A stretch of DNA of 64,000 nucleotides from Naegleria gruberi (lineage: Eukaryota): NCBI GenBank assembly GCA_000004985.1, contig GG738912.1; one strand, written 5' to 3'. The position numbers were made by a program, and so were the translations under genes. Positions within the stretch are counted from its first letter, which is position 1, and each line of letters starts with the position of its first letter. Positions 5,843 through 63,443 of this stretch are shown in pieces. The notes beneath the pieces are model-generated. The model searched no databases, was not told where the DNA came from, and saw only the letters and a list, made by a program, of their open reading frames with translations.

Positions 5843-5966
5843 GAAACGTGATATTGAGTTTAGTGCAATTTACAAAAAAGCGAAACGTGATCAGCTATCT
5901 TGCAATCTCTTCCAAACATCTGCGTGCGTTTTTAAATTTCATACGAAACGTGATATTGAGTTTAGT
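5843..5966. promoter_or_regulatory. Bidirectional promoter region carrying three copies of GAAACGTGAT (two as a 22-bp repeat gaaacgtgatattgagtttagt). It lies between divergent genes starting at 5655 (-) and 6001 (+).
   Basis: Direct reading: copies at 5843-5864, 5882-5891 and 5945-5966. Confidence 0.4.
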
Positions 5967-6000: not shown

Positions 6001-6918
6001 ATGTTTGAACATAATGATCAAGACAGTGCTGTCACTCTTTCTCTCATCGATTTTCATTCATACATTTCCACCAATTTATTAGAAAAATTCAAAAAGAAAC
6101 TTTGCTCACCTCTTTCTCCCCTGATTGAATTTTCACAGAATTTTACAAAAATTTACAAACTTCCAGAGCCATATGTTTACAATGTGGCAATTTGTCAGGA
6201 GCTTAATTATTTAATTGTCGGCTCGTTTTCAACTATAAATTTTTATAATTTGGTGACTCATGAAGGATTATTTCAAATTCCATTTGATGATGGAATTTAT
6301 GACTTGGATTTGGAGAGGGAAAATTCAGGTCAATTTAATTTGATAGTTTCTAGTAGAAACAATGAGTTATTCAAGTTTAATTTTACTGAAATGATAAAGA
6401 CGAAGGAGTTAGGAGAGCCAATTTGGAAATCTGAAAAGAGATTTAACCAAATTTGGGGTCTAACACGTTTCAAAACTGAAATTTATGTAGTTGATCATAG
6501 AGAGAAAATGTTTGCTTTTGATTTAAAGACAGGAAAATTACGCCATGATATTCAAATCGATCTTTCTGAGAACTTGGTTGATTTGGTTTTCACTCCAGAA
6601 GAGGAAATGATTGTGTGTGGAATAGATCAGTTACACATTTTGAAATTCAATGAAAAATCTAAAGGATGGGAAAAGATTAAAACCTTGGATAACAAAGATC
6701 ATATCATTAACGATTGCTTCAGTGTATGTTATGAAAAAAAGACGAGATTGATCTATCTCACCGACATGTATGGTAAATTATTCATATTCGATAGACAATT
6801 CAACCTATTGAAGGAAGTGGAAGGTTTGTCATATCCATATGGTGTTGCAATTAATGATAAGAATGGAGAATTGTTCCTATGTAACACTGGAGCATGTGAA
6901 ATACTAGTTTACAAATAG
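6001..6918 (+). CDS. Hypothetical protein with NHL-like beta-propeller repeats.
   Basis: Intact 305-aa ORF with A-rich Kozak context. The C-terminal YPYGVAINDKNGELFLCNTGACEILVY resembles an NHL repeat. No other recognisable motif. Confidence 0.45.
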   Translation: MFEHNDQDSAVTLSLIDFHSYISTNLLEKFKKKLCSPLSPLIEFSQNFTKIYKLPEPYVYNVAICQELNYLIVGSFSTINFYNLVTHEGLFQIPFDDGIYDLDLERENSGQFNLIVSSRNNELFKFNFTEMIKTKELGEPIWKSEKRFNQIWGLTRFKTEIYVVDHREKMFAFDLKTGKLRHDIQIDLSENLVDLVFTPEEEMIVCGIDQLHILKFNEKSKGWEKIKTLDNKDHIINDCFSVCYEKKTRLIYLTDMYGKLFIFDRQFNLLKEVEGLSYPYGVAINDKNGELFLCNTGACEILVYK

Positions 6919-24484: not shown

Positions 24485-25810
24485 ATGAGAGAAATTGTCA
24501 GTCTTTTTATTGGAGGATGTGGTAACAGGATTGGAAATTGTTTTTGGAAGGGTATTATGAGGGAACACAATATTGATACAAATACAGGAGAGAGGATTGA
24601 AGGATTTGAAGATGTTGAAGAAAATTTAAATATTTTCCTTGATGAGAGGGAAGATAAATTTGTGCCAAGAGTTGTGATGGCCGATCTGGAGGCTGAAACT
24701 ATTGAATCAATGATTAAGAATGAGAATTTATTGGAATCAAAGTTTGCTTCCTTTCAAAGATGTGGAAATGGAAATTGTTTCTCTAGGGGAATGTACACTG
24801 ATGGAGCTCTGCTTATTCGAAATATAATGGATCAAGCAAGGAAGAGTGTAGAACAGTGTGATTTCTTTGAAGGATTTCAAATGTTTCATTCCATAATTGG
24901 TGGATCTGGATCAGGGCTTGGTTCATTAGTTGTTTCGAAACTCAGAGAAGAATTCCCTGACAAAATGATGGCAACTGCTACTGTATTGCCATCAAATAAG
25001 GATGACTATGGATCTAGGTCTCTTTCACATTATAATGCTGGTCTATCCATGCATTATTTGGTAGAGAATACTGATTTTGTAACTTGTCTAAATAATGAGG
25101 CTCTTGGAAATATCTGTAATAGCAAATTAGGACTGGAGAATTATGGCTATGAACATATGAATAATTTAATCACTCAAGCAATTTGTGGTTTTACTAGTCC
25201 ATTAAGATTTTCAGGAATTTTAAATTCTTCATACAGAAAGCTTTCAACCAACCTCGTTCCATTTCCAAGACTACACTTTTTCACTGTATCTCACTCACCC
25301 TTCTGTCTGGGTGATACTGAACCAACAGTTGAGGGATTAACAAGTGATGTTTTTAATCAGACCAATCTACTGATAAGTATGGATCCAAGTTTAGGCCGTT
25401 ACATGACCAATATCATTACTTATCGTGACAATGAGCCGAATATTTCCATGATTGAGGAATATGTAAGAAAATTCAAAAAGGATAATGAAGCTATTTTCAA
25501 AGAATGGGTGCCAAACAATATTCACACTTCAGTATGTAAATCTATTTCACCAGATTGTCCAACCAAGAGCTCAGCAACAATGGTATCCAATACCAGTGCA
25601 ATCAAAACAGTTTTTAACAAGATTTCCGACCAATTTACTGTAATGTTCAGAAGAAGGGCGTTTCTGCACCAATATTTAGAAGATGGTATGGATGAGATGG
25701 AGTTTACAGAAGCGGAATCAAACTTTAATGATCTTCAATCTGAATATTATGATGATTGGGGTGCGTGGTGTGAAGAAGAGGAAGAAGGAGAGTATGATGA
25801 AGAGCCTTAG
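24485..25810 (+). CDS. Divergent tubulin-family protein with a beta-like MREIV N-terminus and an acidic C-terminal tail.
   Basis: MREIVSLFIGGCGNRIGNCFWKG corresponds to tubulin MREIVHIQAGQCGNQIG. GGSGSGLGSLVVSKLREEFPDKMM is the tubulin GGGTGSG…EEYPDRIM block. Acidic EEEEEGEYDEEP tail. Strongly divergent from canonical alpha/beta/gamma tubulins. Confidence 0.7.
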   Translation: MREIVSLFIGGCGNRIGNCFWKGIMREHNIDTNTGERIEGFEDVEENLNIFLDEREDKFVPRVVMADLEAETIESMIKNENLLESKFASFQRCGNGNCFSRGMYTDGALLIRNIMDQARKSVEQCDFFEGFQMFHSIIGGSGSGLGSLVVSKLREEFPDKMMATATVLPSNKDDYGSRSLSHYNAGLSMHYLVENTDFVTCLNNEALGNICNSKLGLENYGYEHMNNLITQAICGFTSPLRFSGILNSSYRKLSTNLVPFPRLHFFTVSHSPFCLGDTEPTVEGLTSDVFNQTNLLISMDPSLGRYMTNIITYRDNEPNISMIEEYVRKFKKDNEAIFKEWVPNNIHTSVCKSISPDCPTKSSATMVSNTSAIKTVFNKISDQFTVMFRRRAFLHQYLEDGMDEMEFTEAESNFNDLQSEYYDDWGAWCEEEEEGEYDEEP

Positions 25811-27989: not shown

Positions 27990-28349
27990 ATGTCCTATCC
28001 AATTCCAACTCCATACGAATGGTCAACCACTCTCGATATTGGCAATGCTGAATTAAACGAACAACATAAGAAACTCTTCACTTTAATCAATGCCTTGGAT
28101 GCCAAGAGAAGTTGTGGCACAACATTGAAGGAATTATTAGATTACGTTGTTTTCCACTTCAAGACTGAAGAAGATTTGTTTGCTAAGGCTGGTTGGTCTG
28201 AATCTGCCTCTCATAAGGAAACTCATGATAAGTTTGTTCAGGATGCTTTGGCATTGACAAGCGTTGGAGATGGTGAGATGCAATTTATTAAGCAATGGTT
28301 GATTACTCACATTTGTGCCTCTGATATGAAGTATAAGGGTGTTATTTAA
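27990..28349 (+). CDS. Hemerythrin (O2/iron-binding HHE-domain protein), about 119 aa.
   Basis: Aligns along its full length to metazoan hemerythrin: …YEWSTTLDIGNAELNEQHKKLF…HF.TEE.LF…HKETHDKFV…WLITHICASDMKYKGVI, including the conserved His/Glu iron ligands. Start is the internal Met at 27990 (acaaacATG). Confidence 0.75.
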   Translation: MSYPIPTPYEWSTTLDIGNAELNEQHKKLFTLINALDAKRSCGTTLKELLDYVVFHFKTEEDLFAKAGWSESASHKETHDKFVQDALALTSVGDGEMQFIKQWLITHICASDMKYKGVI

Positions 28350-28600: not shown

Positions 28601-30513
28601 TCAGGTTAATGACATTTTATACCAACAATTGATTTCTTCTAATTTTTTTTCAATAGAACTCAAAGTCAAATGTTCTTGTAAAGTTTCAACAAACGTTTCA
28701 CAATTGCGCAAAGTAGTGTTTGCTTGATGGGTGTTACCAAATACTTTTTGTTTGATTACTGACATCTTACCTTTAACAAAGTATACCTTCTCAGTCAATT
28801 CATGCAATTTTTCCCACATTTCAGAATTTTCCTCTGGTTGACTGAGTGAAATCTGATTGTTACTGAATGTGAATTTTTCACTGAAGAATGTTGACCTACT
28901 CACTACATCATGTACATTAACAGTAAACACGCCGTCTTGGTCAACTCTGCATTCAACACATATTTTATGGTTAGAGGCAGGCTTTTGATCAATTTTTATG
29001 ATTGAATTGGTTAGTAATTCTAACATTGAGCTAATTTCAGATTCTCCCTCTCTGAAGGTCAAATTAATCTCTTTCGTTTCGTCTGATGAATTTGTAACTG
29101 CCAATAGTTTTTTACAAGGCAAAGGTGTTCCCTTTTCCAGAACCTTAATTAAGGAATTATTTTGATATTCCTTAATTCGAATAGTTCTTGAAAGACATTC
29201 AGTAATAGGAATGGCTTGTTTTTGATAAAGATCATGAGCCAAGTAGGCAGCTCCATAACTAACGATATAAATTATGTCACTATTTTGTGGTCTAGTAATT
29301 GTCTTTAACAAGTCAACTCACTGTCAAGTTATTAAATCTTACTTACAACTCCAGGTAGTTCATCTTGCACCCAATCTTTCACAAATGGAATAAGAGATGA
29401 TCCTCCAACCATAAGAACCTCATTAATATCACATCCAAGTTCTTTAAATTTTGAAATTAAGGTCTGGACCCTTTTTTGGAACGCCTCCTCACAATCTCTC
29501 TTAAATTGCTCATAATTCACAGAAATAATCAAAGATAAATCATTCTCAGGAATCTCAATACTAAAGTATTCAACATTTCGTCTAGTTGAACATAAGGTTT
29601 CTTTCAAAATTCTTGCCTTTGCACTCAACTTGTGTTTAACTTCTTTCTTTAAATTATTCAACTGAGATGTCAATGATTTTTCTTCGAGTGTCATGGAAGA
29701 TGCTCCAAACCAAACAGGTTTAATGTAATTTTGGAAAACCAAATTATCAACATCAACACCTCCCAAAGTAGAATCTCCCTCAACCCATTTCACAATAAAT
29801 TCCAATTGACTATCATGATTTTTACAAACTTGAATGAGTGAAATGTCCAAAGTTCCACCACCAAAATCAAATACCAAGTAATTACCTTCCCCTCTTTGAG
29901 GATCTTTCTTAAAATAGTAATAGGCAGCTGCGGATGGTTCTGGTAATAATTTCAAAACCTTAATGTTTGATTTTCTAGCTGCTTCCAAAGTTGCATTCTT
30001 TTGGAAAACTCCAAATTCAGCTGGAACTGTAATGACTGCTGGAATTTCTTGATCTTTTCTAAATACGGTTACATTTTCAAGAATTTTTTGAGCTACCAAT
30101 TCTGGAGAAATGTCAAGAAACTTTCCGTTTTCAAATACGAAACGACATGTGGCAAGTTGGTTCTCTTGATTAGCAACTATTTTGTAATCTAATTTCTTTT
30201 CATTTTCTTGAATGACGGCCACTTGATTGTCTTTTCTATCCAAACATTAAGAATAGTCAAAGTTTCGTCAACTAACTTACCTTTTACCAATGATTCGTTT
30301 AGTTTCTGTAGCGTAGAGAACACCATTAACATCTTCCAATTCTCCAACACCAGTTTGAAATGATTCTCCGTTTATACAGCTTACATTCACAACAGAGTTT
30401 TGGAAATTACATGATCCTTGTGAAATATATTTCGTATATCCAAATTCATCAATGTACGAAACAATGGTTGTGCTAGTACCTAGATCAATACCAATACACT
30501 TAATATCACTCAT
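28601..30513 (-). CDS. Divergent Hsp70-like protein (A). Three exons: 30281..30513, 29347..30235 and 28601..29302, with introns at 30236..30280 (45 nt) and 29303..29346 (44 nt).
   Basis: Motifs IGIDLGTSTTIVSY, …IIGKR|KDNQVAV…, AVITVPAEF, LLPEPSAAAYYY, LVFDFGGGTLDISL, LGGVDVD, LMVGGSSLIPFV and …NSDIIYIVSYGAAYLA are kept in frame by GTAAGT donors and AG acceptors. Joins ORFs 30277..30654, 29332..30243 and 28601..29311. Confidence 0.7.
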
Positions 30514-30562
30514 TTTTTTTAAAAGAAACACATACTTCACATCATGCATGACATATAAACTA

Positions 30563-30626
30563 TCACGTTTTCGAATAAACCCACTCACGTTTCGAAATTT
30601 AGAGTTTACAATATTCACGTTTCGAA
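30563..30626. promoter_or_regulatory. Promoter of Hsp70-like gene A, containing three copies of TCACGTTT(T)CGAA (reverse complement of …GAAACGTGA).
   Basis: Copies at 30563-30575, 30585-30596 and 30615-30626, immediately upstream of the ATG at 30513. Confidence 0.4.
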
Positions 30627-30634
30627 TCAATCTT

Positions 30635-32101
30635 TTAATTGATATTTTTAACAAACGAAACCTTATAATTTCTAATCATCAGCTCCCTCAGAATACAACC
30701 AACAGAAATCATACTGCCATTATTCAAATATCTACGATTTTCTCCCTTTTTGAATTTTGACAAGCTTGGAATATTCCACAATCCTCCAACAAGTAGTAAT
30801 TGATTACTGTTAAATATTGGCATATTTTCATCAAGAGTTAATTCAGGAAATTCGCTTCTTTTGATAAAAACTGGTCCTTCAAGACTATCCTCTCCAAAAA
30901 TCATTCTAATAGTTTCGGATATAGAAATTTCGTCATCTTGACCATATTGATACATATTCATCATGAGTTTGTTCATTTGAAATGTAAATTTTGCACTTCT
31001 TTCGTCTTTGATATCATTCGTTTTCAATTCTCCATTTTCATACCTGTAATTCAATTTGCAACGAACCAAGATTCGATTACAAAAATCTGAAAGTATTTTA
31101 ACTCCACTAAAACTGAAGCTATATAATACTGTGGATTCGAATACTAGGGAATTGGAATCTTTCCTCACTATACATTGATAGGTGCCTGTACCTGATAAAT
31201 TGAAAATGCTGAACTGAATGCTCATTTCTTTGAATTGTTGCAGAGACGTTTCGTCAGGTTCTTTTTTAAAATCTAACTGATAGAATTGAGCTACATAATA
31301 TGAAATTACAGCCTCGTGCTCAAAACAAGTAGAATTGTTTACAATCTTACTGTCACAATGAAGCTCCCATCCGTATGGAATGGCTGTAATAAATTTCTTA
31401 TTCGAATCTTCATCAATTTGTTTTGAAAATGCTCCAATTAAATGATATATTAAATTACTATTCAATTTTCTTTCTGGAATATTTGAGAATTTTCTGAAAT
31501 ATTCAATGGAAAGCGCTGGTTGACCTTCTGTGATCTCTAACACTTGTTCTCCAATCATATTAGAATAAAATACAGAGGTTATTCTTGTTGAATACAGATC
31601 ATTAATTTTTGATGAACCAATGTTATGATAACTTGCTTGTGAATAAAAAGTTCCACAATCAATTCCAATAATTTGATGAATTTTGTATTCACTTTCCTCC
31701 ATAATTGGTTCCACAGGGTTCTCATTTGAATTTTTCTCGATAGATGTTTGGGTTTCATAATTTTCAACAATTACTTGGACATCCCCTTCCAAATTTTCAT
31801 TCATTTTACAATAGTTAATATGGTTTTCTTCTTCTTTTGGCTCCTCAATTGACATTCTCTTCTCCGTCTTAATTTTACAATCACTTTCATCATTCATAAC
31901 CCATTCTCCCATAATTTCATTCCTCATATGAACTATTTTTAAATCCTTTACATTAGTTTGCTGAGTTCTACATTGTTTGTAATCATCAAATGCACTATCG
32001 TCATCCGTGCTGTGTTGACTCGTAATAATTAATTTTTTGATAGACCTTTTGAATGTTGTGGCTGATCTTTTAATTTTTTGAAACGCCATTTTCTTTTGCA
32101 T
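30635..32101 (-). CDS. Highly divergent Hsp70/actin-fold ATPase-like protein (B) with a ~160-aa N-terminal extension.
   Basis: IIGIDCGTFYSQASY (phosphate-1), FNLSGTGTYQCIV (DLGGGTFD-like) and LLLVGGLWNIPSL (VGGSTRIP-like). The ATG at 32101 is the first true ATG; the ORF-track start at 32140 is TTG. Confidence 0.5.
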   Translation of the reverse strand: MQKKMAFQKIKRSATTFKRSIKKLIITSQHSTDDDSAFDDYKQCRTQQTNVKDLKIVHMRNEIMGEWVMNDESDCKIKTEKRMSIEEPKEEENHINYCKMNENLEGDVQVIVENYETQTSIEKNSNENPVEPIMEESEYKIHQIIGIDCGTFYSQASYHNIGSSKINDLYSTRITSVFYSNMIGEQVLEITEGQPALSIEYFRKFSNIPERKLNSNLIYHLIGAFSKQIDEDSNKKFITAIPYGWELHCDSKIVNNSTCFEHEAVISYYVAQFYQLDFKKEPDETSLQQFKEMSIQFSIFNLSGTGTYQCIVRKDSNSLVFESTVLYSFSFSGVKILSDFCNRILVRCKLNYRYENGELKTNDIKDERSAKFTFQMNKLMMNMYQYGQDDEISISETIRMIFGEDSLEGPVFIKRSEFPELTLDENMPIFNSNQLLLVGGLWNIPSLSKFKKGENRRYLNNGSMISVGCILRELMIRNYKVSFVKNIN

Positions 32102-32243
32102 AAAAAACGTGAAGTTTACAAAAAGTTGGTCAACCAGCAATCACGTAATCACGTTTGTTATTAATAGAAAATATAAAACGTGAAACCTGTGGAAATAATC
32201 GATTTTTGCAATCAACACTTTCTAATAATTATTTCAAAAGAAA
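32102..32243. promoter_or_regulatory. 142-bp bidirectional promoter between Hsp70-like genes B (-) and C (+), carrying several ACGTGA-core motifs.
   Basis: AAAACGTGAAG (32103-13), TCACGTAATCACGTTTG (32141-57) and AAAACGTGAAAC (32176-87). Confidence 0.4.
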
Positions 32244-34058
32244 ATGATCACCCCAATCTTAGTTGGTATCGATTATGGAACTACCAATACCAAAGCAAGC
32301 ATTCGTGAAGAATACATCTGTAACCAACCTAAATGCATTGAATTTGTAAGTGGTAAAAACTATCTTTCATCAGAGATTGCCATCAACAAGAAAGATAAAT
32401 CTTGCATTGTTGGCTTGGAGGATGGCGAATCAACATATTACAAGATTGCCGAATCCAAACGATTGATTGGCAGAGCCTACAAGTCTGTAATGAATAAGGA
32501 AGATTTTAGTACAAGACTTGGTTACCATGTTGCAAATGTTGATGGAATGGCAAACATTAGAATCAACTCAACCACAGATGGTAGCAATGATGTTGAAATT
32601 ATTGATATCGATCCAAGATTAGTTACTGCTGACATTCTTAAAAAAGTCAAAAAGCATATCATTGATACCAACAACTATCCAGATGATACAATTGTTCAAG
32701 CTGTGGTTACTGTCCCAGCTAATTATGGATATAGTCAGAAATCTGCAACAATGGAAGCTGCCGAGTTGAGTGGATTGCAAGTTCTACTGTTAATCCCAGA
32801 ACCAACAGCAGCTGCACTTGCTTTCTTAGATTCCAAGAAATTCTCTGATGGTTATTATCTTGTAATTGACTTTGGTGGTGGCACTCTCGATCTCTCACTT
32901 GTCCATCTGGAAGGTAAGAAAGTCATTGTAAAGAAAGTGTTTGGTAACATGTTTTTGGGAGGAGGAGATGTCGATCAAGCCATTGCAGAAGTGTTGAAAA
33001 CCAAGATTGACCCAGCACTTGAAATTCCAGTTCAGATTGAGAACATCTTTAGTAAGACTACAGAAATTGTCAATTTCAACAATGCTATTCTAAAGAAAAA
33101 ATCCAAAACACTCAAGGAAATGCTGAGCGAAGGAACCAACGAAGAAATTTCTTTGAGTATTAATTTGAAAGGTTATAGTGGTATGAAAATTGTCAATCTG
33201 TCATTTTCCAAACAAGAACTTTGTGCAGTTTTGAATTCAAAGTTTAGAGAACCTTTTGAAAAGGTCTTGAAAGAATGTAAGAATGGAATGGAGTGTGAAT
33301 TAGATGGTATTCTCCTTGCTGGTGGCTCATCTAAACTACCAACCATTGAATCTTGGACTAGAAATGTGTTTGAACAAGTTACAATTCATACACATGCACA
33401 TGATGTTCAAACTCTTGTTGCAAGAGGAGCTTTCTTAGCAGCAGAGTCAATCAGAAATGGCACAAATCAACTAGAGAATTTGCAAGTGATGGAAGAAGTA
33501 ACCGCAACCCATTTGGGAATTGAGACAAAGAATGTGGTGACTGATAAAGTAGAATTCACAACATTAATTCCAATGCACAGCCCTTTAAAAACTTCCTTTA
33601 CAAAGACCTTTACAAACGTTGTTGATGATCAAGAGAAAGCGAAAATTAGAGTATTGGAAAATTTGTCAGAATCTTTTGAAGATTCTACTGAAATATCCAG
33701 TTTGGTAATCAATATCATGAAAAGAAAGAAGGGAGAAACCAAGATTGATGTTACTTTTTCTGTTGATTTGAATGGTATCCTTCAGGTTGCCATTGTAGAA
33801 CAAGGAAGAGATTCTGATAATAAGCACGAAATCAAAACTACGTTGACCAATTTGTGGACTCCTGAACAAATAGAAGAGTTTCGTAAAAGAAAACATTTTA
33901 GTGTCCAAGAGGTAACTAAGGTTGCAGCACAACAAGTACCAAGCTTGAGTCAAAATCTTAGTAGTCAAATTCAATTTGACCTCTTAGATGAATTATTCAA
34001 AGGTCCAAATAAGCAAGTTCTCATTTTGGATACAGGTGCCAATAAACCATTATTATAA
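32244..34058 (+). CDS. Divergent Hsp70-like protein (C) with both nucleotide-binding and substrate-binding-like regions.
   Basis: VGIDYGTTNTKAS, VVTVPANYGYSQKSATMEAAELSGLQVLLLIPEPTAAALAF, LVIDFGGGTLDLSLV, LGGGDVD, ILLAGGSSKLPTI and VARGAFLAAE. Confidence 0.7.
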   Translation: MITPILVGIDYGTTNTKASIREEYICNQPKCIEFVSGKNYLSSEIAINKKDKSCIVGLEDGESTYYKIAESKRLIGRAYKSVMNKEDFSTRLGYHVANVDGMANIRINSTTDGSNDVEIIDIDPRLVTADILKKVKKHIIDTNNYPDDTIVQAVVTVPANYGYSQKSATMEAAELSGLQVLLLIPEPTAAALAFLDSKKFSDGYYLVIDFGGGTLDLSLVHLEGKKVIVKKVFGNMFLGGGDVDQAIAEVLKTKIDPALEIPVQIENIFSKTTEIVNFNNAILKKKSKTLKEMLSEGTNEEISLSINLKGYSGMKIVNLSFSKQELCAVLNSKFREPFEKVLKECKNGMECELDGILLAGGSSKLPTIESWTRNVFEQVTIHTHAHDVQTLVARGAFLAAESIRNGTNQLENLQVMEEVTATHLGIETKNVVTDKVEFTTLIPMHSPLKTSFTKTFTNVVDDQEKAKIRVLENLSESFEDSTEISSLVINIMKRKKGETKIDVTFSVDLNGILQVAIVEQGRDSDNKHEIKTTLTNLWTPEQIEEFRKRKHFSVQEVTKVAAQQVPSLSQNLSSQIQFDLLDELFKGPNKQVLILDTGANKPLL

Positions 34059-51142: not shown

Positions 51143-54100
51143 TTAATTTTTTCTATTCCTTTTTGGTTTAGAAACAAATGTTGGGACTCTTGTGAGTGAT
51201 TGTTTTTCATATTCAAACTCTATCGCGGAAAAATGGTTATATTGTTCACCAAAGTATCCTCTAGCTTCTTGGTTTCCATTTTTAGCAGCTTTCAACAACC
51301 AGAGTGTTCCTTGTGTTACATCTGTTTCACATAATAACTTTCCCAACGCCAACTCTGCATCTGAATTTTGTTGTTGAGCAGCTTTGAGCAACCATGAATG
51401 TGCAAGCTTAATGTTTTTCGGGACAACCTTATCAAGTCCATACATATAAATCATTCCAAGAGAATATTGTGCATTTGAATTTCCTTGATTAGCAGATTTG
51501 CAATACCACTCAAAAGCAAGTGAATAATTGGGTGTTTGGATGATATTAAGTGTATGATGATAAATGCAAGCTACTTCATATTGGGCTTCATTATTTCCAA
51601 GTTCAGCAGCTTTTTGATAGTAATCCCATGCTTTTTGATTATCCTTTAATTCTTTATAGAGATATCCTAAACGAAAGAGTGCTTCTGAATTCTTCACATC
51701 AGATTCTACTGCTTTTAGATACCATATAATGGCCTCATGTTTATCCAATAAAACACCATCACCCAGCTCATACATTTCTCCAATATCATATTGTGAATCA
51801 GAATCATTGAATTTTGTAGATGCTTCCAAATACAATTCGTGTGCTTCTTGATAATTACCCTTATTAAAAAACATTCTAGCCACATTTCTAAGAGCTTCAA
51901 TATGCGTACTTATTATTTCAGCTTCTCTAAAAATAAGTTTTCTATATTCTTCATCAATTTCCATTCTTTTTAAATTCATATTATTACCTAATATAATGTG
52001 TTCGCCAGAAACTAAGATATCTGTAGTAATAGTAGAAAGCTTTTGCTTGGATAAATCGAGTGCTTTTTGGTAAAGTTTAAATGCCAACAATTCATTACTT
52101 GATATTCCATTATCACCATCTTCAAGCATTGATGCAACATAATTAATGGCAGGAATATAGTTACTATCATATACTTTCTTAAATAGCTCAAAAGTTTCGG
52201 TATTGTTTGTTTTGGAATAATGAATAGCTTGTTGGAATAATTTCTCCCCTTTATCATTACTAACTTCCAAAATCATATCCAATTGACTTGCAGAATATAA
52301 AACTCCATATTCCACGCCTTCCATTTCTAAAGTATTAACGTTCATCTCATATTGGTTTCTTCTTTGAGCATCTTCTATAAAATAAGAAATCAATTTTCTT
52401 TTTTGAGAATCATTATTTAACACTAAAGAGTAGAGAGTGTAATTATTTTGCTCTGATTTCTCCATTTCTAAAATGTGAGAGGAGAAGTTTGGGATTAGAA
52501 TAAATCTGCTTTTGTCTTTGATTAAATGGCCCATTTTTAAACCAAATTGTGTGACAGATTTTAGAGAGGAATTTAGAGAAATAATATGCACCTCCTTGTC
52601 CTTAAGAAATAATACAAAAAATCTCCAAAAAAGGTCCATCATTTCCGAGACCATTTGAACTCGCTGTTTCTTTTTGTTAATCTGTTTGAAAATAGTTTGA
52701 AATAATTCCTTATAAATATCTTCCATCCTTTTTTGATAATCATTTGGTTTCGTGTTGTTTTTGAAAATATTTGCTATCTTGTACTTGATAAATGTGATTA
52801 AATGTTGTCTGTCATCTACACGTGCTATTTGAGAATTTGGGTCTTTAAACTCTAATTTTTGAGAAACTAACAATTGCATACTATCATATAATTTACCAAC
52901 TAGAGAAACACTGCGCCTCAATGGACCATGTTTGTTCTTGTGGTAGTGTGGAAAGCCAGGGAATTTTTCAAGTAGTTCTAAATCTTGTGCATTTACAGCA
53001 ACACTGTAGTTGCCTTTTTTGGGAGCGTCGATAGCCCTGTTGATGAGAGTACATAATCTTTCCATGTTATTCCAGTATTTTCGTGACCATTGATTTCCAT
53101 AAAAATCAGCAAACAAATGACGAATTCCAATCAAGTCTTTGAATATATCAGGATCGAATGATCGTGTCTCATTGTAGTCGTCATCAAAAGATCCTGGATC
53201 GAACTCTACTAATGATTCTACTAGTTCGTTATCCCAACATGCAAAATATTGATCTCCATCTAGATCAGATCCTGCAATCATATTTGTTATTGGTCTACTT
53301 CCTTTTGTAGGAAAAACAATAACATCGTAAAGAAAATTCAATTCAGGAATGTTGACTGCCTCTAATTTTCTCAGGTCACCACGATGTAAGCATGGCTCTT
53401 TAGTGACAATCACAGTATTCTCAATTACATTCTTCTTCTTTGGATCATTTAGAGAGGAAACTTGAATAAATATTTGACCTTCTTTGAGTACTCCGAAAGG
53501 ATCTGCTATTCCGTACAACCTTCTAGAACTGTAACAAGGAATTCTCAAGGAGAGTATTTGGTTTCTGTAGGGGCCTGTCAGGAAAGCAAGCTTTTTGCTT
53601 TTTAGAATGGAAAGAACGTTAAGAGAGGCATAGTCTCCTTGTTTTACGTACTGATCAAAAACCTTGTCAATGTCCGATTCTGAAATATAGTTTTTCATCA
53701 AATTTTCAATATGTTTACAGGCCTTTTGGTTTAGTATTTCGAATATCTTTCCTTGTTTTGTTTCATCTTCACACCCTTCTAAAATGTGCATAATTGTCGA
53801 ATTGATTCTAGCAAAATCACAGGGGCTTGAATAACCTACGATGCATAAATTATTAATTATATCATCATCAGTGTTTGGGTGTTCAATTTTCATCATTGAT
53901 TTCCTTAGCACTAAATGGTGACCATACACCTTTTCCGCATTTGGATGGATGTAAACCATGCCTTTGGCTCCTCTAAATCTTATTTGGTATGCACAGGGAA
54001 GATATTCATTGACTAGAAACTCTACTCCATCATTTTCTTCGTAGATACCATCTTCATCCATCGATTGTTTGCTCTGGTATTTCAATAAATTTTTAGATTT

Positions 54101-55297
54101 ACGAACAATTTCATAAACTTTCATAGCCAATTCAAGAGAAATAAATCCACATCCATCGGTGAAAAGTCCCTCATCATTAATAACAGTGTATTCTGAAACT
54201 CCAATAGTAGGAATAACAGGAGTATTAAATAAAGCCAGTCTTAAACTTTGCTTTAATTTGTTATTCTCAAAATAAAGATCCCTGTTCAATGTATCTGGAA
54301 TGGCCCATGTTTTTACATCATGTATTGATAGGGAAGAATTGTTTGGAAGTTTGGAAAGATCAGGACACATGTAAATAAATCGATAAGAATGCATTCCACT
54401 CGTATTTTGACACAGTTTCTGGAATGTAAATCCAGCAATATGTAAAGGCTCTTCTCTTTCTATATATGGCTCTATTAGCCTGAATGATTGGTTATCCATT
54501 AACACTCTGCTAATGTGCTTTTGGTCTTTCATTAATTTCAATGTTTCCTCATCGAATTTTCCTTCCTTGAATTGATTTAAATATTGTCTCAATAATACTA
54601 TATCTCCATGATCCTCTGATTTTGATTCCATAGCCACTTGATCCTTCAATTCAATATTATTTAAAATTTCAGGGTGCTCTCCAGTAGATTCAAGAATCAT
54701 TTGAGATTTGAAACCCATTCTCAAAAAGCTAAATCCAACATTCAACACTGTATTCACACCAAATTTTTGTCTAAACCTACTCTGTAGCCATCTATCTTGT
54801 TGTGAGCTGTTGAATCGAATGGCAAGAATGGGTGATATCTTTGGTTTGTAAAAACAATATAAGGTTGCTGTTCTAGTCCTAAACATTGTCTCTGATTCGT
54901 CCAATTCTTCTGTTGTTTGCTTACTTGGAGATGAAAGGTTTAAATTCTGATGATCCTCTTCCTTCTCTGTTATTGTTGCTAACAACCACCGATGAAGAGC
55001 CTCTAATCCTATCGGATAGGCAATCACTGCCATCCTAGAAACTCTCTTTAATATTTCATAGCGATCGACGAAGGACATTCCACAATACTTTTCCCCTCTC
55101 ACATTTTTGAAATTAAATTCCAAATATTTGGTACAATCATCAAAATTTCTAATGATCGGAATGGATTCAATCATGTAATAAGTTGCCAATAAATCCTTTA
55201 CGTAATTTTCATCTTGTCTATTCATAAACTTTAACTCTTCAAGTTGTTGAATCTTTTCAAGCTTTGAGAACCCAGAAACAAAAGACAATACGGACAT
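51143..55297 (-). CDS. Eukaryotic cellular RNA-dependent RNA polymerase (RDR family, about 930 aa) fused to a C-terminal array of Sel1-like (TPR-like) repeats, about 450 aa.
   Basis: RdRP catalytic motifs …IVTKEPCLHRGDLRKLEAV… and …AGSDLDGDQYFACWD…. The C-terminus has at least 6 Sel1-type units (e.g. NSNAQYSLGMIYMYGLDKVVPKNIKLAHSWLLKAAQQQNSDAELALGKLL, AIIWYLKAVESDVKNSEALFRLGYLY). Single 1384-codon ORF. Confidence 0.8.
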   Translation of the reverse strand: MSVLSFVSGFSKLEKIQQLEELKFMNRQDENYVKDLLATYYMIESIPIIRNFDDCTKYLEFNFKNVRGEKYCGMSFVDRYEILKRVSRMAVIAYPIGLEALHRWLLATITEKEEDHQNLNLSSPSKQTTEELDESETMFRTRTATLYCFYKPKISPILAIRFNSSQQDRWLQSRFRQKFGVNTVLNVGFSFLRMGFKSQMILESTGEHPEILNNIELKDQVAMESKSEDHGDIVLLRQYLNQFKEGKFDEETLKLMKDQKHISRVLMDNQSFRLIEPYIEREEPLHIAGFTFQKLCQNTSGMHSYRFIYMCPDLSKLPNNSSLSIHDVKTWAIPDTLNRDLYFENNKLKQSLRLALFNTPVIPTIGVSEYTVINDEGLFTDGCGFISLELAMKVYEIVRKSKNLLKYQSKQSMDEDGIYEENDGVEFLVNEYLPCAYQIRFRGAKGMVYIHPNAEKVYGHHLVLRKSMMKIEHPNTDDDIINNLCIVGYSSPCDFARINSTIMHILEGCEDETKQGKIFEILNQKACKHIENLMKNYISESDIDKVFDQYVKQGDYASLNVLSILKSKKLAFLTGPYRNQILSLRIPCYSSRRLYGIADPFGVLKEGQIFIQVSSLNDPKKKNVIENTVIVTKEPCLHRGDLRKLEAVNIPELNFLYDVIVFPTKGSRPITNMIAGSDLDGDQYFACWDNELVESLVEFDPGSFDDDYNETRSFDPDIFKDLIGIRHLFADFYGNQWSRKYWNNMERLCTLINRAIDAPKKGNYSVAVNAQDLELLEKFPGFPHYHKNKHGPLRRSVSLVGKLYDSMQLLVSQKLEFKDPNSQIARVDDRQHLITFIKYKIANIFKNNTKPNDYQKRMEDIYKELFQTIFKQINKKKQRVQMVSEMMDLFWRFFVLFLKDKEVHIISLNSSLKSVTQFGLKMGHLIKDKSRFILIPNFSSHILEMEKSEQNNYTLYSLVLNNDSQKRKLISYFIEDAQRRNQYEMNVNTLEMEGVEYGVLYSASQLDMILEVSNDKGEKLFQQAIHYSKTNNTETFELFKKVYDSNYIPAINYVASMLEDGDNGISSNELLAFKLYQKALDLSKQKLSTITTDILVSGEHIILGNNMNLKRMEIDEEYRKLIFREAEIISTHIEALRNVARMFFNKGNYQEAHELYLEASTKFNDSDSQYDIGEMYELGDGVLLDKHEAIIWYLKAVESDVKNSEALFRLGYLYKELKDNQKAWDYYQKAAELGNNEAQYEVACIYHHTLNIIQTPNYSLAFEWYCKSANQGNSNAQYSLGMIYMYGLDKVVPKNIKLAHSWLLKAAQQQNSDAELALGKLLCETDVTQGTLWLLKAAKNGNQEARGYFGEQYNHFSAIEFEYEKQSLTRVPTFVSKPKRNRKN

Positions 55298-58223: not shown

Positions 58224-59360
58224 TTATTGGTTGGAAATATTAGAGCATGTGGACAAACAGCGATTATCATCCCCATCTTCGTTGATAGTTGTCATTGGTG
58301 TGGAAGTTTGAATCTGTAGTTGACCTTCCTCAACATTAACTGAACTTGAAATATTACTATTTGCATTATCATGATCAATTAAATGTTTCAATACCACCTT
58401 TCTGATTTGGAAGAGCACAAACCATGATAATCTTATCATGACCAATACCAAGGAAATCTTGATAGTTTCTCCTGGTAAGAATGGAACTAAACCCTTCTCA
58501 ATTCCCTTAGAGAGTCCAAGATTTGGCACTCCGAATGCCAACCATCCACATCCAAATACAAATGTAACAGCATTCGATAGACACAACATGAGGAGATTCA
58601 TCATGATGGTACGATCTGAAGCCATTTTGGAGCAAAACCAACCACAAATCAGTGCACTAAAGACAAAACCAATGAGGAAACCACTACTACTCGACTGGAA
58701 CAAGACCAGATTTCCATGTGTTTGATTGGAAAACCAAGGAATATCAAGAACAGAACCACAGAATAAATAGAGGAGAATACTGAGTGGAGCAATGACAAAA
58801 CCAGTTAAGGAGCCAAGCCACAAGACACCAAAAGTTTGTCCAGTGATTGGAACGGCACTAATGGAGGAAGGGAGTGAAATGGAAATTTGAGCACAAACTC
58901 CCATCAAGCATGCTCCAAAGATAACCAACAACATGTTGGAAATGAAGGGAACGACAGCATTGGAAACGATTGTTTTCAAAAGTGGATGGCATGTGCCAAG
59001 TTTCAAATGCCACTTTTTTACAAGATCAAATCTTCTCTCACTCTTGATAAGAATGAGATCAAAAACTGAACGCATGAGTGCCATGTATGCATCCAAGAAT
59101 GAAGGATACCAACTTGGGTTGACCAAGATTTTCACAGGAGGTTCCTCTTCAACCATTGGTGTAGAAGTGCTGCCAATTCTACCAATTGAGTGGTCTTGTC
59201 CTCTTCTTCTTCTAATCTGTGATATATTTTCAGATTCAATGGTGAGATGTTGCTGAGAAACTTTATATCCAAGCTTTCTTTCAATTTCCTTGCCCAAATC
59301 ATCAATTCTGCTTGACGATTCAAATGACTCACCAAGTGGGGACACTACAAGATATTGCAT
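58224..59360 (-). CDS. BioY-family (biotin ECF-transporter S-component-like) membrane protein with a ~150-aa N-terminal hydrophilic extension.
   Basis: …ISAVPITGQTFGVLWLGSLTGFVIAPLSILLYLFCGSVLDIPWFS… matches the BioY core (VPITLQTLAVLLAG…LLYLLLGAIGLPVF). About 6 TM segments. True ATG at 59360 (aaaaacaccATG); the ORF-track start is TTG. Confidence 0.5.
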   Translation of the reverse strand: MQYLVVSPLGESFESSSRIDDLGKEIERKLGYKVSQQHLTIESENISQIRRRRGQDHSIGRIGSTSTPMVEEEPPVKILVNPSWYPSFLDAYMALMRSVFDLILIKSERRFDLVKKWHLKLGTCHPLLKTIVSNAVVPFISNMLLVIFGACLMGVCAQISISLPSSISAVPITGQTFGVLWLGSLTGFVIAPLSILLYLFCGSVLDIPWFSNQTHGNLVLFQSSSSGFLIGFVFSALICGWFCSKMASDRTIMMNLLMLCLSNAVTFVFGCGWLAFGVPNLGLSKGIEKGLVPFLPGETIKISLVLVMIRLSWFVLFQIRKVVLKHLIDHDNANSNISSSVNVEEGQLQIQTSTPMTTINEDGDDNRCLSTCSNISNQ

Positions 59361-59733
59361 GGTGTTTTTTTTGTATTGTTTTTCTCTCAAGATCTTGTGA
59401 GGAGAGAACTCGAAGCTCAATAGAATTTGATTCTTCTAAGTGTTTGGGGAGACCGAAATATTCGGAAGTTTTGAAAAGATCCGTTTAATGTGTAAGCAAT
59501 TCTGAACCTTCTTTAAGGATTTTTAATAATCACGAACGACTCCCCGAATACAATATGGTTTCACACATTGTAAATTTAACAGAGTTACGAATATTAAATT
59601 ATAATTAATCTAATTAATAATAAAGCATCAATATATTGCTAACTAGATTGCTAATCAATCATGCATGGATTTGAAACTAGATCCAATATCTATCACGTAA
59701 ATATTCAAAACTCATTAATAAAACATGAATTGT

Positions 59734-61886: not shown

Positions 61887-63443
61887 CTAATGAGTACTTT
61901 CAAATATTACTTTGGGTTTCTTAGATTTTGATTGTACATAAAGGATGCCATCTGTATCAAGTCCAAACGTGAGTGAAATATTACTAGAAGATAACTCTGT
62001 TATCTCAGTAATCTTTACAATTCCAATCAGCTCATTATCACTTGCTTTTTTCGAATCACCTTCATATATTTTGAGTGAAACTGCTTTCTTTTGATTGTTT
62101 GGATTTGGCGGGAGGGAGAATTCTCTTTCTGAACTACAGGGAATGGAATTGTCCTTTTTAAGGAGTATCATTAAATCTCCTCCTATACTAATCTCACATC
62201 CAATGTTTCGGCTTGTAACTTCAATGAGGAGAAGATCTTTTTCAAAATTTGCTAATATACCACCTTGGATAGCAGCTCCAAAAACAACTGGATTTGGATA
62301 AATAGGTCTTGGATGGATGGATTTACAAAAATAGGTTGTAATGAGTTGTTTTAGTTTTGGTATTTCACATCCTCCTCCAATAATTATTGCATCGGCTATT
62401 TCTTCCTTGGAACAATTTGCTCTTCGAATGACCTTATCAGCAAGGGATAAACATTTTGAAAAGAAATCAGTATTCAAATCCTCAAATTTAGAACGAGTTA
62501 GCACAATCTCAAAATCAATTCCATCCATTAGTGATTTGATAGATAGTTGTGTTTGCAATTCAGTAGATAATTTCTTCTTGGCTTCCTCGCATGCAACTTG
62601 CATCTTCCTCATTGAAACAGGATTCTCCTGTAGTCGTTTCTTGAATAATTTATAAAATTCCTCACAACAATAGCTCACTAAACTTTCGTCTAGCTTTGCA
62701 CCACCATGGTTAGGGAGACCATCACTACTTTTTGTATCCACAACTCCATTGTCCACCAAGAACACTGAAGCAGAGCATCCTGACCTTCCCAAATCAAATA
62801 CGAAAACCCTCTTTTCCCCTCTGTATTTCCAAATATACTGGAAGCAAGCTGCAGATGTATCATGAACGAGTCTACTGTTTGTCACTCCAATACTTTCCAC
62901 GACTTTCTTCATTTCAATTCTCTGATGATTCGAAAAGTAATTCGGAATTGAAACCACCAAATCCGTCACTGCTCGTTTCAAATATCTTTCAGCATCCTCC
63001 TTCAATTGTTTAAGAATTAATCCAATCATTTCATTAACAGATATTTCCTCATACTCCTCCTCTTTACAAACACTCAAACGAATTGTCTTGTCCTGCTTTC
63101 TAATAATTCTGAATGGCCACTCATTACTTTTCAATATTAATTCGTCATCTTCATCATCACAAGCCTTTCCAATTAATTGTTTAAAATCCCAGAATAAACA
63201 ATATGGATCCTCCGATTTACTATAAAACTCCAAAGCCTCCTCTCCAATTAATATTCTACTATTACTCATAGATGAGTCATCCAATAATGAAGAGGAAGAA
63301 ACAAAGGCTATACACGTTGGAGTTTCATAATTTCCCAATTTATTTGGAATGTATTCAACATGATCTTCGAGATAGACAGCCACTCGACAATGTGATCCTC
63401 CGAAATCAATGGCAACAATTCCGTGATTGAGATGAGAAAACAT
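61887..63443 (-). CDS. Divergent Hsp70-like protein (D).
   Basis: VAIDFGGSHCRVAV (phosphate-1), VFVFDLGRSGCSASVFLV (DLGGGTFD-like) and AIIIGGGCEIPKL (VGGSTRIP-like). True ATG at 63443 (aaaaaaaATG). Confidence 0.6.
   Translation of the reverse strand: MFSHLNHGIVAIDFGGSHCRVAVYLEDHVEYIPNKLGNYETPTCIAFVSSSSLLDDSSMSNSRILIGEEALEFYSKSEDPYCLFWDFKQLIGKACDDEDDELILKSNEWPFRIIRKQDKTIRLSVCKEEEYEEISVNEMIGLILKQLKEDAERYLKRAVTDLVVSIPNYFSNHQRIEMKKVVESIGVTNSRLVHDTSAACFQYIWKYRGEKRVFVFDLGRSGCSASVFLVDNGVVDTKSSDGLPNHGGAKLDESLVSYCCEEFYKLFKKRLQENPVSMRKMQVACEEAKKKLSTELQTQLSIKSLMDGIDFEIVLTRSKFEDLNTDFFSKCLSLADKVIRRANCSKEEIADAIIIGGGCEIPKLKQLITTYFCKSIHPRPIYPNPVVFGAAIQGGILANFEKDLLLIEVTSRNIGCEISIGGDLMILLKKDNSIPCSSEREFSLPPNPNNQKKAVSLKIYEGDSKKASDNELIGIVKITEITELSSSNISLTFGLDTDGILYVQSKSKKPKVIFESTH

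What the first reader, a model, noticed from the sequence alone, without database searches (positions are those of the whole stretch)
28601..34058. Cluster of three highly divergent Hsp70-like genes, with a fourth at 61887-63443
Four genes carry the phosphate-1, phosphate-2 and adenosine-binding motifs of the Hsp70 nucleotide-binding domain, and two also have SBD-like regions. They are far more diverged than canonical cytosolic, ER or mitochondrial Hsp70. Three are contiguous: A and B on the minus strand, and B and C sharing a 142-bp bidirectional promoter. This looks like a lineage-specific expansion of atypical Hsp70-family ATPases rather than housekeeping chaperones.
Basis: partly seen in the sequence, partly recalled or inferred. 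Interest (0 to 1): 0.55.

Follow-up and report, generated by a model that had tools for sequence, protein, structure and literature searches.

The report
Divergent Hsp70 gene cluster in Naegleria
This stretch of the Naegleria gruberi genome carries three real but very diverged Hsp70 chaperone genes and one orphan gene that only faintly resembles an Hsp70 ATPase domain; they are unusual members of a well-known family, not a new kind of system.

Summary
The window is Naegleria gruberi nuclear DNA. The coordinates given are correct. Genes A (28601-30513, minus strand, three exons), C (32244-34058, plus) and D (61887-63443, minus) belong to Pfam HSP70, but score only 152, 212 and 292 bits against 871 for a canonical cytosolic Hsp70. 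They are at most about 30% identical to any other Hsp70.

- **A and C** keep every catalytic residue and have a beta substrate-binding domain. They group with only two environmental proteins (95% bootstrap in a neighbour-joining tree).
- **D** has no lid and an altered phosphate-2 loop. A 54%-identical N. gruberi paralog shares these changes.
- **B** (30635-32101, minus) is a real coding ORF but an orphan. No Pfam, NCBIfam or PDB match was found, and no relative among 1.84 billion representative proteins. Only its phosphate-1 and adenosine segments match an Hsp70 profile, in the right order. It is probably a decayed, inactive ATPase-domain copy, but this is not proven.

The public annotation fuses B and A into one 1081-aa protein; I think they are two genes. 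Clusters of three AAACGTGA motifs lie upstream of A, between B and C, and upstream of one unrelated gene. None is upstream of D. This suggests co-regulation. These are not Hsp110, Grp170, DnaK or HscA orthologs. Interest is modest.

The parts
28601..30513 (-). Gene A: divergent Hsp70, 607 aa. Exons 30513-30281, 30235-29347 and 29302-28601. Introns 30280-30236 (45 nt) and 29346-29303 (44 nt), both GTAAGT..AG.
   Evidence: Splicing restores one frame. PF00012 scores 152 bits over residues 7-548. All catalytic motifs are intact. The best PDB matches are BiP and Hsc70, at about 1e-33.
30563..30622 (-). Three copies of CGAAACGTGA, 57-109 nt upstream of the A start codon. This is a candidate promoter element. 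It lies inside the 154-nt 'intron' (30652-30499) that the public model uses to fuse B to A.
   Evidence: Searches give the motif statistics. One search shows the fused model P0242. One search shows the motifs are conserved in the second allele, L001.
30635..32101 (-). Gene B: orphan ORF of 488 aa (484 aa from the Met at 32089). It has a charged N-terminal region of about 140 aa, then about 350 aa that is probably a decayed Hsp70-type nucleotide-binding domain.
   Evidence: Codon usage is coding-like. The ORF is intact in a second allele. There is no family or PDB hit. No relative exists among 1.84e9 representatives apart from its own allele. Only the phosphate-1 segment (z about 8) and the adenosine segment (z about 3.5) match an Hsp70 NBD profile, and they do so in the right order. 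AlphaFold2 from the single sequence was unusable (pLDDT 31).
32102..32243 (.). Divergent intergenic region between B and C, 142 bp. It holds AAACGTGA at 32105-32112 (+), 32149-32156 (-) and 32176-32183 (+).
   Evidence: Apart from a small indel, the region is conserved in L001.
32244..34058 (+). Gene C: divergent Hsp70, 604 aa, no introns. It is NAEGRDRAFT_81760 (XP_002670727).
   Evidence: PF00012 scores 212 bits. It is 100% identical to an N. gruberi predicted protein. Catalytic residues are intact. The best PDB match is Hsc70, 2e-39.
61887..63443 (-). Gene D: Hsp70 without a lid, 518 aa (NBD plus SBD-beta), with altered phosphate-1, phosphate-2 and EPT motifs. It is NAEGRDRAFT_74282.
   Evidence: PF00012 scores 292 bits. 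The AlphaFold2 model has pLDDT 88.9 and TM 0.9 to ATP-state BiP, DnaK and Ssb. Motif changes are shown. The paralog P0123 is 54% identical.
5844..5953 (+). Third cluster of three (C)GAAACGTGAT motifs, 55-157 nt upstream of an unrelated 305-aa ORF (6001-6918).

Best explanation
The locus holds old, fast-evolving paralogs of the Hsp70 chaperone family in Naegleria gruberi.

- **A and C** are probably working ATP-driven Hsp70s in the cytosol or nucleus. They have a full catalytic set, a beta substrate-binding domain, a shortened helical tail and no targeting signals. They belong to a small, deep clade with two environmental proteins. In this clade the NBD residues that DnaK uses to dock the J-domain (R167 and N170 equivalents) are replaced, so coupling to J-proteins may differ. 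That last point is inferred.
- **B**, lying between A and C, is a real protein-coding orphan gene. It is most likely a third copy of the ATPase domain that has decayed beyond normal detection. It has lost the phosphate-2 catalytic loop and the whole substrate-binding domain, so it would be a pseudo-ATPase at best.
- **D** is a separate Hsp70 without a lid. It is most similar to cytosolic Hsp70. Its altered catalytic loop is conserved in a second N. gruberi copy, so it probably binds nucleotide but hydrolyses it poorly.
- **Regulation.** A, B and C each lie just downstream of clustered AAACGTGA motifs. This points to a shared, non-HSF transcriptional control, meaning a specialised (stress- or stage-specific) role rather than a housekeeping one.

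Shown here: family membership, residues, gene models and motif enrichment. Inferred: enzymatic activity, B's ancestry, co-regulation and biological role.
For: - **Organism.** C and D are 100% identical to N. gruberi predicted proteins.
- **Family.** PF00012 scores are A 152, C 212 and D 292 bits, against 871 for SSA1. Other actin-like families are far weaker.
- **Catalytic columns.** A and C keep the D10, K71, E175, D199, GGGT and D206 equivalents. D has GS for TT, DTS for EPT and RSGCSA for GGGTFD. The paralog P0123 has the same changes.
- **D structure.** The model has pLDDT 88.9 and TM 0.9 to ATP-state BiP, DnaK and Ssb, and it ends after SBD-beta.
- **A/C clade.** A, C, P0003 and P0004 group with 95% neighbour-joining bootstrap. 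A scores 204 bits to P0004 but only 131 bits to C.
- **No close orthologs.** None was found elsewhere.
- **B is coding.** Codon usage is coding-like and the ORF is intact in a 99%-identical allele.
- **B resembles an NBD.** The phosphate-1 segment scores 31.6 against 11.4+/-2.5 for shuffles. The adenosine segment scores 20.5 against 12.0+/-2.4, with 0 of 40 shuffles reaching it. Both land at the correct, collinear profile positions. The extended alignment is collinear across about 320 columns, with Sum_probs z of 2.9.
- **Motif.** AAACGTGA occurs 10 times against 1.9 expected, and 0 of 100 shuffles reach 10. Nine copies form three promoter-proximal clusters, oriented towards the downstream genes.
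- **No heat-shock elements.** No canonical HSE lies in these promoters.
Against: - Outside phosphate-1, B's similarity to Hsp70 is weak. A global profile alignment of the remainder scores no better than shuffles (z 0.41), and the phosphate-2 segment is not significant.
- There is no usable structure model of B.
- dN/dS for B between the two alleles is 0.77, from only 13 differences. Constraint on B is therefore not shown.
- No expression, ATPase or binding data were available. No paper mentions these genes.
- The neighbour-joining tree uses few reference subfamilies and long branches. The A/C clade or the D placement could be long-branch artefacts.
- The function of the motif is untested.
Confidence: 0.6

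Rival explanations
1. B is an unrelated orphan gene. It is either de novo or too diverged to assign. Its IGIDCGT and VGGxxxIP strings are chance look-alikes, so the cluster holds only two Hsp70 genes.
For: - No hit in Pfam, NCBIfam or PDB.
- No relatives among 1.84e9 representatives.
- The Hsp70 HMM does not find B at E<=10.
- hhalign probability is only 18-25%.
- The remainder of the domain is not significant in a global alignment.
Against: - Two separate segments beat all shuffles, and both fall at the right, collinear profile positions.
- The relaxed alignment is collinear over about 320 columns.
- B lies directly between two Hsp70 genes.
Confidence: 0.3
2. B and A are one gene, as in the public annotation (NAEGRDRAFT_74267, 1081 aa). 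That protein would have a decayed N-terminal NBD-like domain fused to a complete Hsp70.
For: The public model P0242 joins ...KVSF to CIGIDLG... by removing 30652-30499. B and A are on the same strand, only about 120 nt apart.
Against: - The proposed 154-nt intron starts GTTAAA. The two clear introns in A are 44-45 nt and start GTAAGT.
- The model removes an in-frame stop and a well-placed ATG that sits the usual 5-6 residues before the phosphate-1 motif, as in C and D.
- The 'intron' holds three copies of the motif that otherwise sits 55-160 nt upstream of start codons.
- Pfam sees the HSP70 domain only in residues 481-1021 of the fused model.
Confidence: 0.2
3. D and its paralog are the N. 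gruberi versions of the ribosome-associated, non-hydrolysing Hsp70 (HSPA14/Ssz1 type) that pairs with Zuotin/DNAJC2. That would make D an ordinary conserved component.
For: - D is 518 aa and ends after SBD-beta, and its catalytic loop is degenerate. By my own knowledge, both are typical of HSPA14/Ssz1.
Against: - D scores higher to cytosolic SSA1 (250 bits) than to the recalled HSPA14 (162 bits).
- The 52% grouping joins long branches.
- No ortholog above about 33% identity was found in any other organism, which is unexpected for a conserved ribosome factor.
- The HSPA14 sequence is unverified, and no HSPA14 structure is in the PDB copy.
Confidence: 0.2
4. A and C were acquired by horizontal transfer, for example from a giant virus or another protist, rather than by old duplication inside the Naegleria lineage.
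For: Their nearest relatives are environmental proteins. P0004 lies on a compact 45-kb AT-rich contig with ubiquitin, EF-hand, IBR, VWA and S8 protease genes. That mix would fit a giant virus or a protist.
Against: - Identity to these relatives is only about 30%.
- A has spliceosomal introns.
- Base composition and codon usage match the host.
- No relatives were found in the IMG/VR viral collection.
Confidence: 0.08

Closest known systems
Canonical cytosolic Hsp70 (Hsc70/HSPA8, yeast Ssa)
   Same: A, C and D have the same two-domain plan: an actin-like NBD followed by SBD-beta. A and C keep all catalytic residues. Hsc70, BiP, DnaK and Ssb are the best PDB matches.
   Different: - Only 26-31% identical.
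- PF00012 scores are 152-292 bits against 871.
- No EEVD tail, and the lid is truncated (A, C) or absent (D).
- The NBD positions equivalent to DnaK R167 and N170 are changed in A and C.
- D has an altered phosphate-2 loop.
HSPA14 / Ssz1 (ribosome-associated complex Hsp70)
   Same: For D only: about 510-540 aa, truncated after SBD-beta, with a degenerate catalytic centre. The description of the family is from my own knowledge. D's features are shown.
   Different: D shows no specific sequence affinity to an HSPA14 sequence recalled from memory (162 bits against 250 to SSA1). D has a species-specific paralog, and no detectable orthologs elsewhere.
Hsp110 / Grp170 (Sse1, HSPA4, HYOU1)
   Same: Diverged members of the Hsp70 superfamily.
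   Different: Sse1 is only 18% identical to D and ranks below all Hsp70s in the fold search. It is not among the best 60 PDB sequence hits for A, C or D. A, C and D are 518-607 aa, without the long SBD insertions and C-terminal extension of Hsp110/Grp170.
Bacterial DnaK / HscA equivalogs
   Same: These are the best NCBIfam matches, with the same domain order.
   Different: Scores are 162-250 bits against curated cut-offs of 620-1019 bits. A has spliceosomal introns, so it is a eukaryotic gene.
Environmental proteins P0003 (692 aa) and P0004 (743 aa)
   Same: They group with A and C at 95% neighbour-joining bootstrap. They share DFGGGTLD, xEPTAAA without the Asn, VPANF and a short helical tail.
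   Different: Only 28-31% identical to A and C. Their organisms are unknown. They have extra N- or C-terminal extensions and a low-complexity insert.

Membership tests
Hsp70 family (Pfam PF00012) | Whole-protein score above the Pfam gathering threshold (20.6 bits), with HSP70 as the best-scoring family. | tested here: met
   A 152, C 212 and D 292 bits. MreB, ParM and FtsA are far weaker. This row covers A, C and D only.
Hsp70 family (Pfam PF00012): gene B | Detectable homology to the Hsp70 NBD by HMM or profile-profile search. | tested here: inconclusive
   No Pfam, NCBIfam or PDB hit. hmmsearch --max finds nothing at E<=10. hhalign probability is 18-25%. Even so, the phosphate-1 and adenosine segments beat all shuffles at collinear positions.
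Catalytically active Hsp70 NBD | Conserved Asp10, Lys71, Glu175, Asp199, GGGT loop and Asp206 (Hsc70 numbering). | tested here: met
   Met for A and C. Not met for D (GS for TT, DTS for EPT, RSGCSA for GGGTFD), nor for B under the relaxed alignment (FNLSGTGT).
Canonical cytosolic Hsp70 (Hsc70/Ssa) | Full alpha-helical lid and a C-terminal EEVD motif. | tested here: not met
   The C-termini read ...CWYKMSLT (A)...GANKPLL (C) and ...VIFESTH (D). PF00012 coverage stops at profile positions 522, 516 and 488 of 599.
ER (BiP) or mitochondrial Hsp70 | N-terminal signal peptide plus a C-terminal HDEL/KDEL, or an N-terminal presequence. | tested here: not met
   The phosphate-1 motif starts at residues 7-13 of A, C and D, leaving no extension. 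There is no HDEL or KDEL. This was read from the sequence; no targeting predictor was run.
Hsp110 / Grp170 | Better match to Hsp110 than to Hsp70, plus an extended SBD with long insertions (more than 690 aa). | tested here: not met
   Sse1 is at rank 45 or lower, with 18% identity, for D. It is absent from the best 60 PDB hits for A, C and D. Lengths are 518-607 aa.
DnaK / HscA equivalogs (NCBIfam) | Score above the curated equivalog cut-off. | tested here: not met
   162-250 bits against cut-offs of 620-1019.
HSPA14 / Ssz1 type (gene D) | SBD truncated after the beta-sandwich, and a degenerate catalytic centre. | tested here: met
   These features are not unique to this family.
HSPA14 / Ssz1 type (gene D) | Specific phylogenetic grouping with HSPA14/Ssz sequences. 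| tested here: inconclusive
   Only an HSPA14 sequence recalled from memory was available. It gave 162 bits against 250 to SSA1 and a neighbour-joining grouping at 52%. The afdb50 fold library was unavailable.
HSPA14 / Ssz1 type (gene D) | Stable complex with Zuotin/DNAJC2 on the ribosome. | not testable with these tools
   This needs biochemistry.
HSPA12 / HSPA13 atypical Hsp70s | Grouping with verified HSPA12 or HSPA13 sequences. | not tested
   No reference sequences for these subfamilies could be obtained with the searches that remained.

The most novel reading that the evidence does not exclude
A and C, with two environmental proteins, could define a deep Hsp70 subfamily that has not been described. 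It would have a re-modelled J-domain docking surface. In N. gruberi it would work as a module with an adjacent pseudo-ATPase partner (B). B would be transcribed divergently from C, and the whole set would be controlled by a new ACGT-core promoter element (AAACGTGA) instead of heat-shock elements.
Probability: 0.2. Interest if true: 0.5.

Novelty: new member of a known kind. Interest (0 to 1): 0.3.

Why it matters
Hsp70 is among the most conserved protein families. Copies that keep the catalytic centre but have drifted to about 27-30% identity show how far the fold can change while probably still working. A neighbouring copy that may have decayed into a pseudo-ATPase is a small natural experiment in how a chaperone paralog is lost or re-used.

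There are two practical results. The public gene model that fuses B and A is probably wrong. The AAACGTGA promoter clusters also give a concrete starting point for studying gene regulation in Naegleria, where promoters are poorly known. None of this changes the general picture of Hsp70 biology.

Tried and rejected
- **AlphaFold2 on B from the single sequence.** pLDDT was 31, so the model is unusable. I did not feed B a forced Hsp70 alignment, because that would be circular.
- **Full HMMER search of 1.84e9 representatives with B.** It found only B's own allele.
- **Global profile alignment of B without the phosphate-1 segment.** It scored no better than shuffles.
- **The afdb50 fold library.** It was not available, so D's nearest annotated relatives could not be read from AlphaFold DB.
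- **PDB search using an HSPA14 sequence typed from memory.** No HSPA14 entry was found. That sequence is unverified and was used only for rough comparison.
- **Viral-collection scans with C and P0004.** No relatives were found.
- **Metagenome scan with the A/C-clade alignment.** It returned only generic Hsp70s at 23-30% identity.
- **Canonical heat-shock elements.** Their number is at chance level, and none lies in the relevant promoters.
- **Literature searches** for Naegleria Hsp70 expansions and for the gene identifiers. Nothing relevant was found. The Mimivirus/Naegleria Hsp70 paper concerns canonical Hsp70.
- **Look-up of the contig for paralog P0123.** It is not on record.
- **Rejected readings.** Hsp110/Grp170 orthologs, DnaK/HscA orthologs and other actin-like ATPase families were all rejected.


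Full report
**Source and gene models**

The window is nuclear DNA of the amoeboflagellate Naegleria gruberi. Proteins C and D are 100% identical to N. gruberi predicted proteins on a 238,573-bp scaffold: NAEGRDRAFT_81760 (XP_002670727) and NAEGRDRAFT_74282 (XP_002670776). G+C is uniform at about 33%.

- **A** is on the minus strand. Two short introns interrupt it: 30280-30236 (45 nt) and 29346-29303 (44 nt), both GTAAGT..AG. Splicing gives one 607-aa protein from ATG 30513 to the stop at 28601.
- **B** runs from 32101 to 30635 on the minus strand (488 aa). The public models start four codons later, at 32089.
- **C** is 32244-34058 on the plus strand (604 aa).
- **D** is 63443-61887 on the minus strand (518 aa).
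- The B-C intergenic distance is 142 bp, as stated.

**A, C and D are true but extreme members of the Hsp70 family**

| Protein | Pfam HSP70 (PF00012) score |
|---|---|
| Canonical yeast-type SSA1 (P0067) | 871 bits |
| D | 292 bits (9e-87) |
| C | 212 bits (1e-62) |
| A | 152 bits (2e-44) |

MreB, ParM and FtsA models score far lower. The best solved-structure matches are Hsc70, BiP, mortalin, DnaK and Ssb: C 2e-39, A 9e-34 and D 6e-75. Against NCBIfam the three score 162-250 bits on DnaK and HscA models whose curated cut-offs are 620-1019 bits. They are therefore not orthologs of those chaperones.

Among themselves they are very distant. A and C are 27.5% identical. A-D and C-D are about 22%. 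A six-frame scan with an Hsp70 profile finds no further copy in the window.

**Catalytic and architectural features**

In an alignment with SSA1 and DnaK, A and C keep the equivalents of Hsc70 Asp10, Lys71, Glu175, Asp199, the GGGT loop and Asp206. They are therefore probably active ATPases; this is an inference.

D keeps Asp10 and Lys71 but differs elsewhere:
- DFGGSH in place of DLGTTY;
- HDTSAA in place of NEPTAAA;
- DLGRSGCSAS in place of DLGGGTFDVS.

The 54%-identical N. gruberi paralog P0123 (NAEGRDRAFT_74325, on another scaffold) has the same substitutions. The altered site is therefore older than the duplication and has been kept.

D ends right after it. Its AlphaFold2 model (pLDDT 88.9, pTM 0.89) superposes on ATP-state BiP, DnaK and Ssb at TM 0.9 and about 2.2 A. 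Sse1 (Hsp110) is only 18% identical and ranks lower.

None of the three has an N-terminal extension, an HDEL or KDEL signal, or an EEVD tail. This points to the cytosol or nucleus and to a missing or shortened lid.

In A and C the residues aligned with DnaK R167 and N170 are K/L and P. In their relatives P0003 and P0004 they are Q and A/S. From my knowledge of the DnaK-DnaJ interface, these positions contact the J-domain, so J-protein coupling may be altered. That is an inference only.

**Relatives**

C's next-best hits after itself are two environmental proteins at about 30% identity, P0003 and P0004. Everything else is generic Hsp70 at 25-32%. A scores 204 bits to P0004, 156 to P0003, 131 to C and 124 to SSA1.

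In a neighbour-joining tree (523 columns, 100 bootstraps), A, C, P0003 and P0004 form a clade at 95%. D and P0123 join at 100%. D's position relative to the other Hsp70s is unresolved.

P0004 lies on a 45-kb, 33% G+C metagenome contig with ubiquitin, EF-hand, IBR, VWA and S8 protease genes. Its organism is unknown. Viral-collection scans found no relatives. A metagenome scan found nothing above 30% identity.

So A and C are not a recent tandem duplication. They look like old, fast-evolving members of a small clade. Only D and P0123 look like an N. gruberi-specific duplication.

**Gene B**

B is a real coding ORF. Its in-frame codon usage resembles that of other genes in the window (+0.14, against -0.21 and -0.27 out of frame). 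The 484-codon frame is intact in a 99%-identical allele on a metagenome contig, L001. That contig has the same B-C arrangement. With only 13 differences, dN/dS of 0.77 says little.

B is nevertheless an orphan:
- no Pfam, NCBIfam or PDB match;
- only its own allele in the word-indexed search;
- only its own allele in a full HMMER search of 1.84 billion representatives;
- an Hsp70 HMM does not report it even at E<=10.

Profile-profile comparison aligns confidently only 26 columns around IIGIDCGTFYSQASY, at 18-25% probability.

Shuffle tests give a mixed picture:
- The phosphate-1 segment scores 31.6 against 11.4+/-2.5 for shuffles.
- The last 67 residues (LLLVGGLWNIPSL...ISVGCIL) score 20.5 against 12.0+/-2.4, and 0 of 40 shuffles reach that score. 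This segment lands on the adenosine-motif and C-terminal-helix columns, which is the correct collinear place.
- The phosphate-2 segment and the middle of the domain are not significant.
- With a relaxed threshold the alignment is collinear over about 320 columns. Its posterior sum exceeds that of all 80 partial shuffles (z 2.9).
- A global alignment without the phosphate-1 segment is at chance (z 0.41).

AlphaFold2 from the single sequence failed (pLDDT 31).

My reading is that B's C-terminal 350 residues or so are probably a strongly decayed Hsp70-type NBD. It lacks a functional phosphate-2 loop and has no SBD. A charged region of about 140 residues, with no recognisable domain, precedes it. 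I put this at roughly 60-65%. The main alternative is an unrelated orphan.

**Annotation conflict**

The public model NAEGRDRAFT_74267 (P0242, 1081 aa) joins B to A by removing 30652-30499. This deletes B's stop codon and A's first five codons. I favour two genes, for these reasons:
- The proposed 154-nt intron begins GTTAAA. A's two clear introns are 44-45 nt and begin GTAAGT.
- A's ATG sits the usual few residues before the phosphate-1 motif, as in C and D.
- The removed segment contains a motif cluster that elsewhere lies upstream of start codons (see below).

Only transcript data can settle this.

**A shared promoter motif**

AAACGTGA occurs 10 times in the window against 1.9 expected; 0 of 100 shuffles reach 10. 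Nine copies form three clusters of three:
- 30563-30622, which is 57-109 nt upstream of A's ATG, on A's strand;
- 32105-32183 in the B-C intergenic region, with two copies facing C and one facing B;
- 5844-5953, which is 55-157 nt upstream of an unrelated 305-aa ORF at 6001-6918.

Even the 6-mer ACGTGA occurs only 15 times, and 10 of those are in these clusters. The motifs are kept in the L001 allele, while nearby intergenic bases vary. D has no such cluster upstream. Canonical heat-shock elements occur at chance frequency and not in these promoters. This suggests, but does not show, that A, B and C are co-regulated by an unknown factor that binds an ACGT core.

**Context**

The rest of the window is an ordinary mixed chromosomal neighbourhood. 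It holds EGF/NHL, protein kinase, HlyIII, Kazal, sterol reductase, tubulin, hemerythrin, RdRP-Sel1/TPR, LRR, BioY and RGS/DEP genes. No J-domain, GrpE or BAG gene lies nearby.

**Comparison with known families**

The proteins do not score better to other actin-like ATPase families, and they are not Hsp110/Grp170 orthologs.
- They are also not canonical cytosolic, ER or mitochondrial Hsp70s, nor DnaK or HscA.
- D shares the lidless, degenerate-site design of HSPA14/Ssz1. The 52% neighbour-joining grouping with that sequence is weak. The PDB copy holds no HSPA14 entry, and the AlphaFold DB library was unavailable. This question stays open.
- HSPA12 and HSPA13 could not be tested.
- No paper in the library mentions these genes or a Naegleria Hsp70 expansion.

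**Verdict**

These are new, highly diverged members of a known family, and three of them are already flagged with PF00012 in public databases. The modest added value is the probable pseudo-NBD gene, the likely mis-fused gene model, the small A/C clade and the promoter motif. Interest is 0.3.

Noticed in passing
window 5844-5953, 30563-30622, 32105-32183: The motif (C)GAAACGTGA(T/A) occurs 10 times against 1.9 expected. Nine copies lie in three promoter-proximal clusters of three, upstream of A, B/C and an unrelated ORF at 6001-6918. This is a candidate cis-regulatory element of an unknown regulon.
   Followed up: partly
window 30499-30652: The public model NAEGRDRAFT_74267 (1081 aa) fuses genes B and A through a 154-nt GTTAAA..AAG 'intron'. 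That segment contains B's stop codon, A's ATG and three promoter-like motifs. The model is probably a mis-annotation.
   Followed up: partly
window 58224-59420 (-): An ORF with a BioY-family domain (PF02632, 5e-26). BioY is a bacterial-type biotin transporter component, which is unusual in a eukaryotic genome. This could be an old gene transfer.
   Followed up: no
window 51143-55297 (-): A 1384-aa ORF that combines a eukaryotic RNA-dependent RNA polymerase domain (PF05183, 2e-78) with C-terminal Sel1/TPR repeats.
   Followed up: no
window 24485-25810 (+): A tubulin-family gene with fairly low Pfam scores (Tubulin 1e-44, Tubulin_C 1e-19). It may be a divergent, non-alpha/beta tubulin.
   Followed up: no
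window 27990-28349 (+): A small hemerythrin-domain gene (PF01814, 5e-09) just downstream of gene A, about 250 bp beyond its stop codon.
   Followed up: no
window 3070-5655 (-) and 6001-6918 (+): An 861-aa protein with two kinase-domain matches is transcribed divergently from the motif-bearing 305-aa ORF. That ORF has no Pfam hit but looks like a beta-propeller/NHL repeat protein by eye.
   Followed up: no
L001 (ENA metagenome ERZ929261, contig k127_31882, 3942 bp): An environmental contig about 99% identical to window 30.5-34.5 kb. It carries the same B-C divergent pair, so a close N. gruberi strain is present in that metagenome. The intergenic regions carry small indels, while the motifs are kept.
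   Followed up: yes
L005 (JGI 3300062347, Ga0606064_0156, 45 kb): The contig carrying P0004, the nearest relative of gene A, is 33% G+C and densely packed with ubiquitin, EF-hand, IBR, VWA and S8 protease genes. It could be a protist or a giant virus; the organism was not identified.
   Followed up: partly
P0016, P0028 (tardigrade proteins, 514-518 aa): Tardigrade 'Hsp70' proteins of about 515 aa are among C's better hits. By their length they probably lack a lid as well. If so, lidless divergent Hsp70s have arisen more than once.
   Followed up: no
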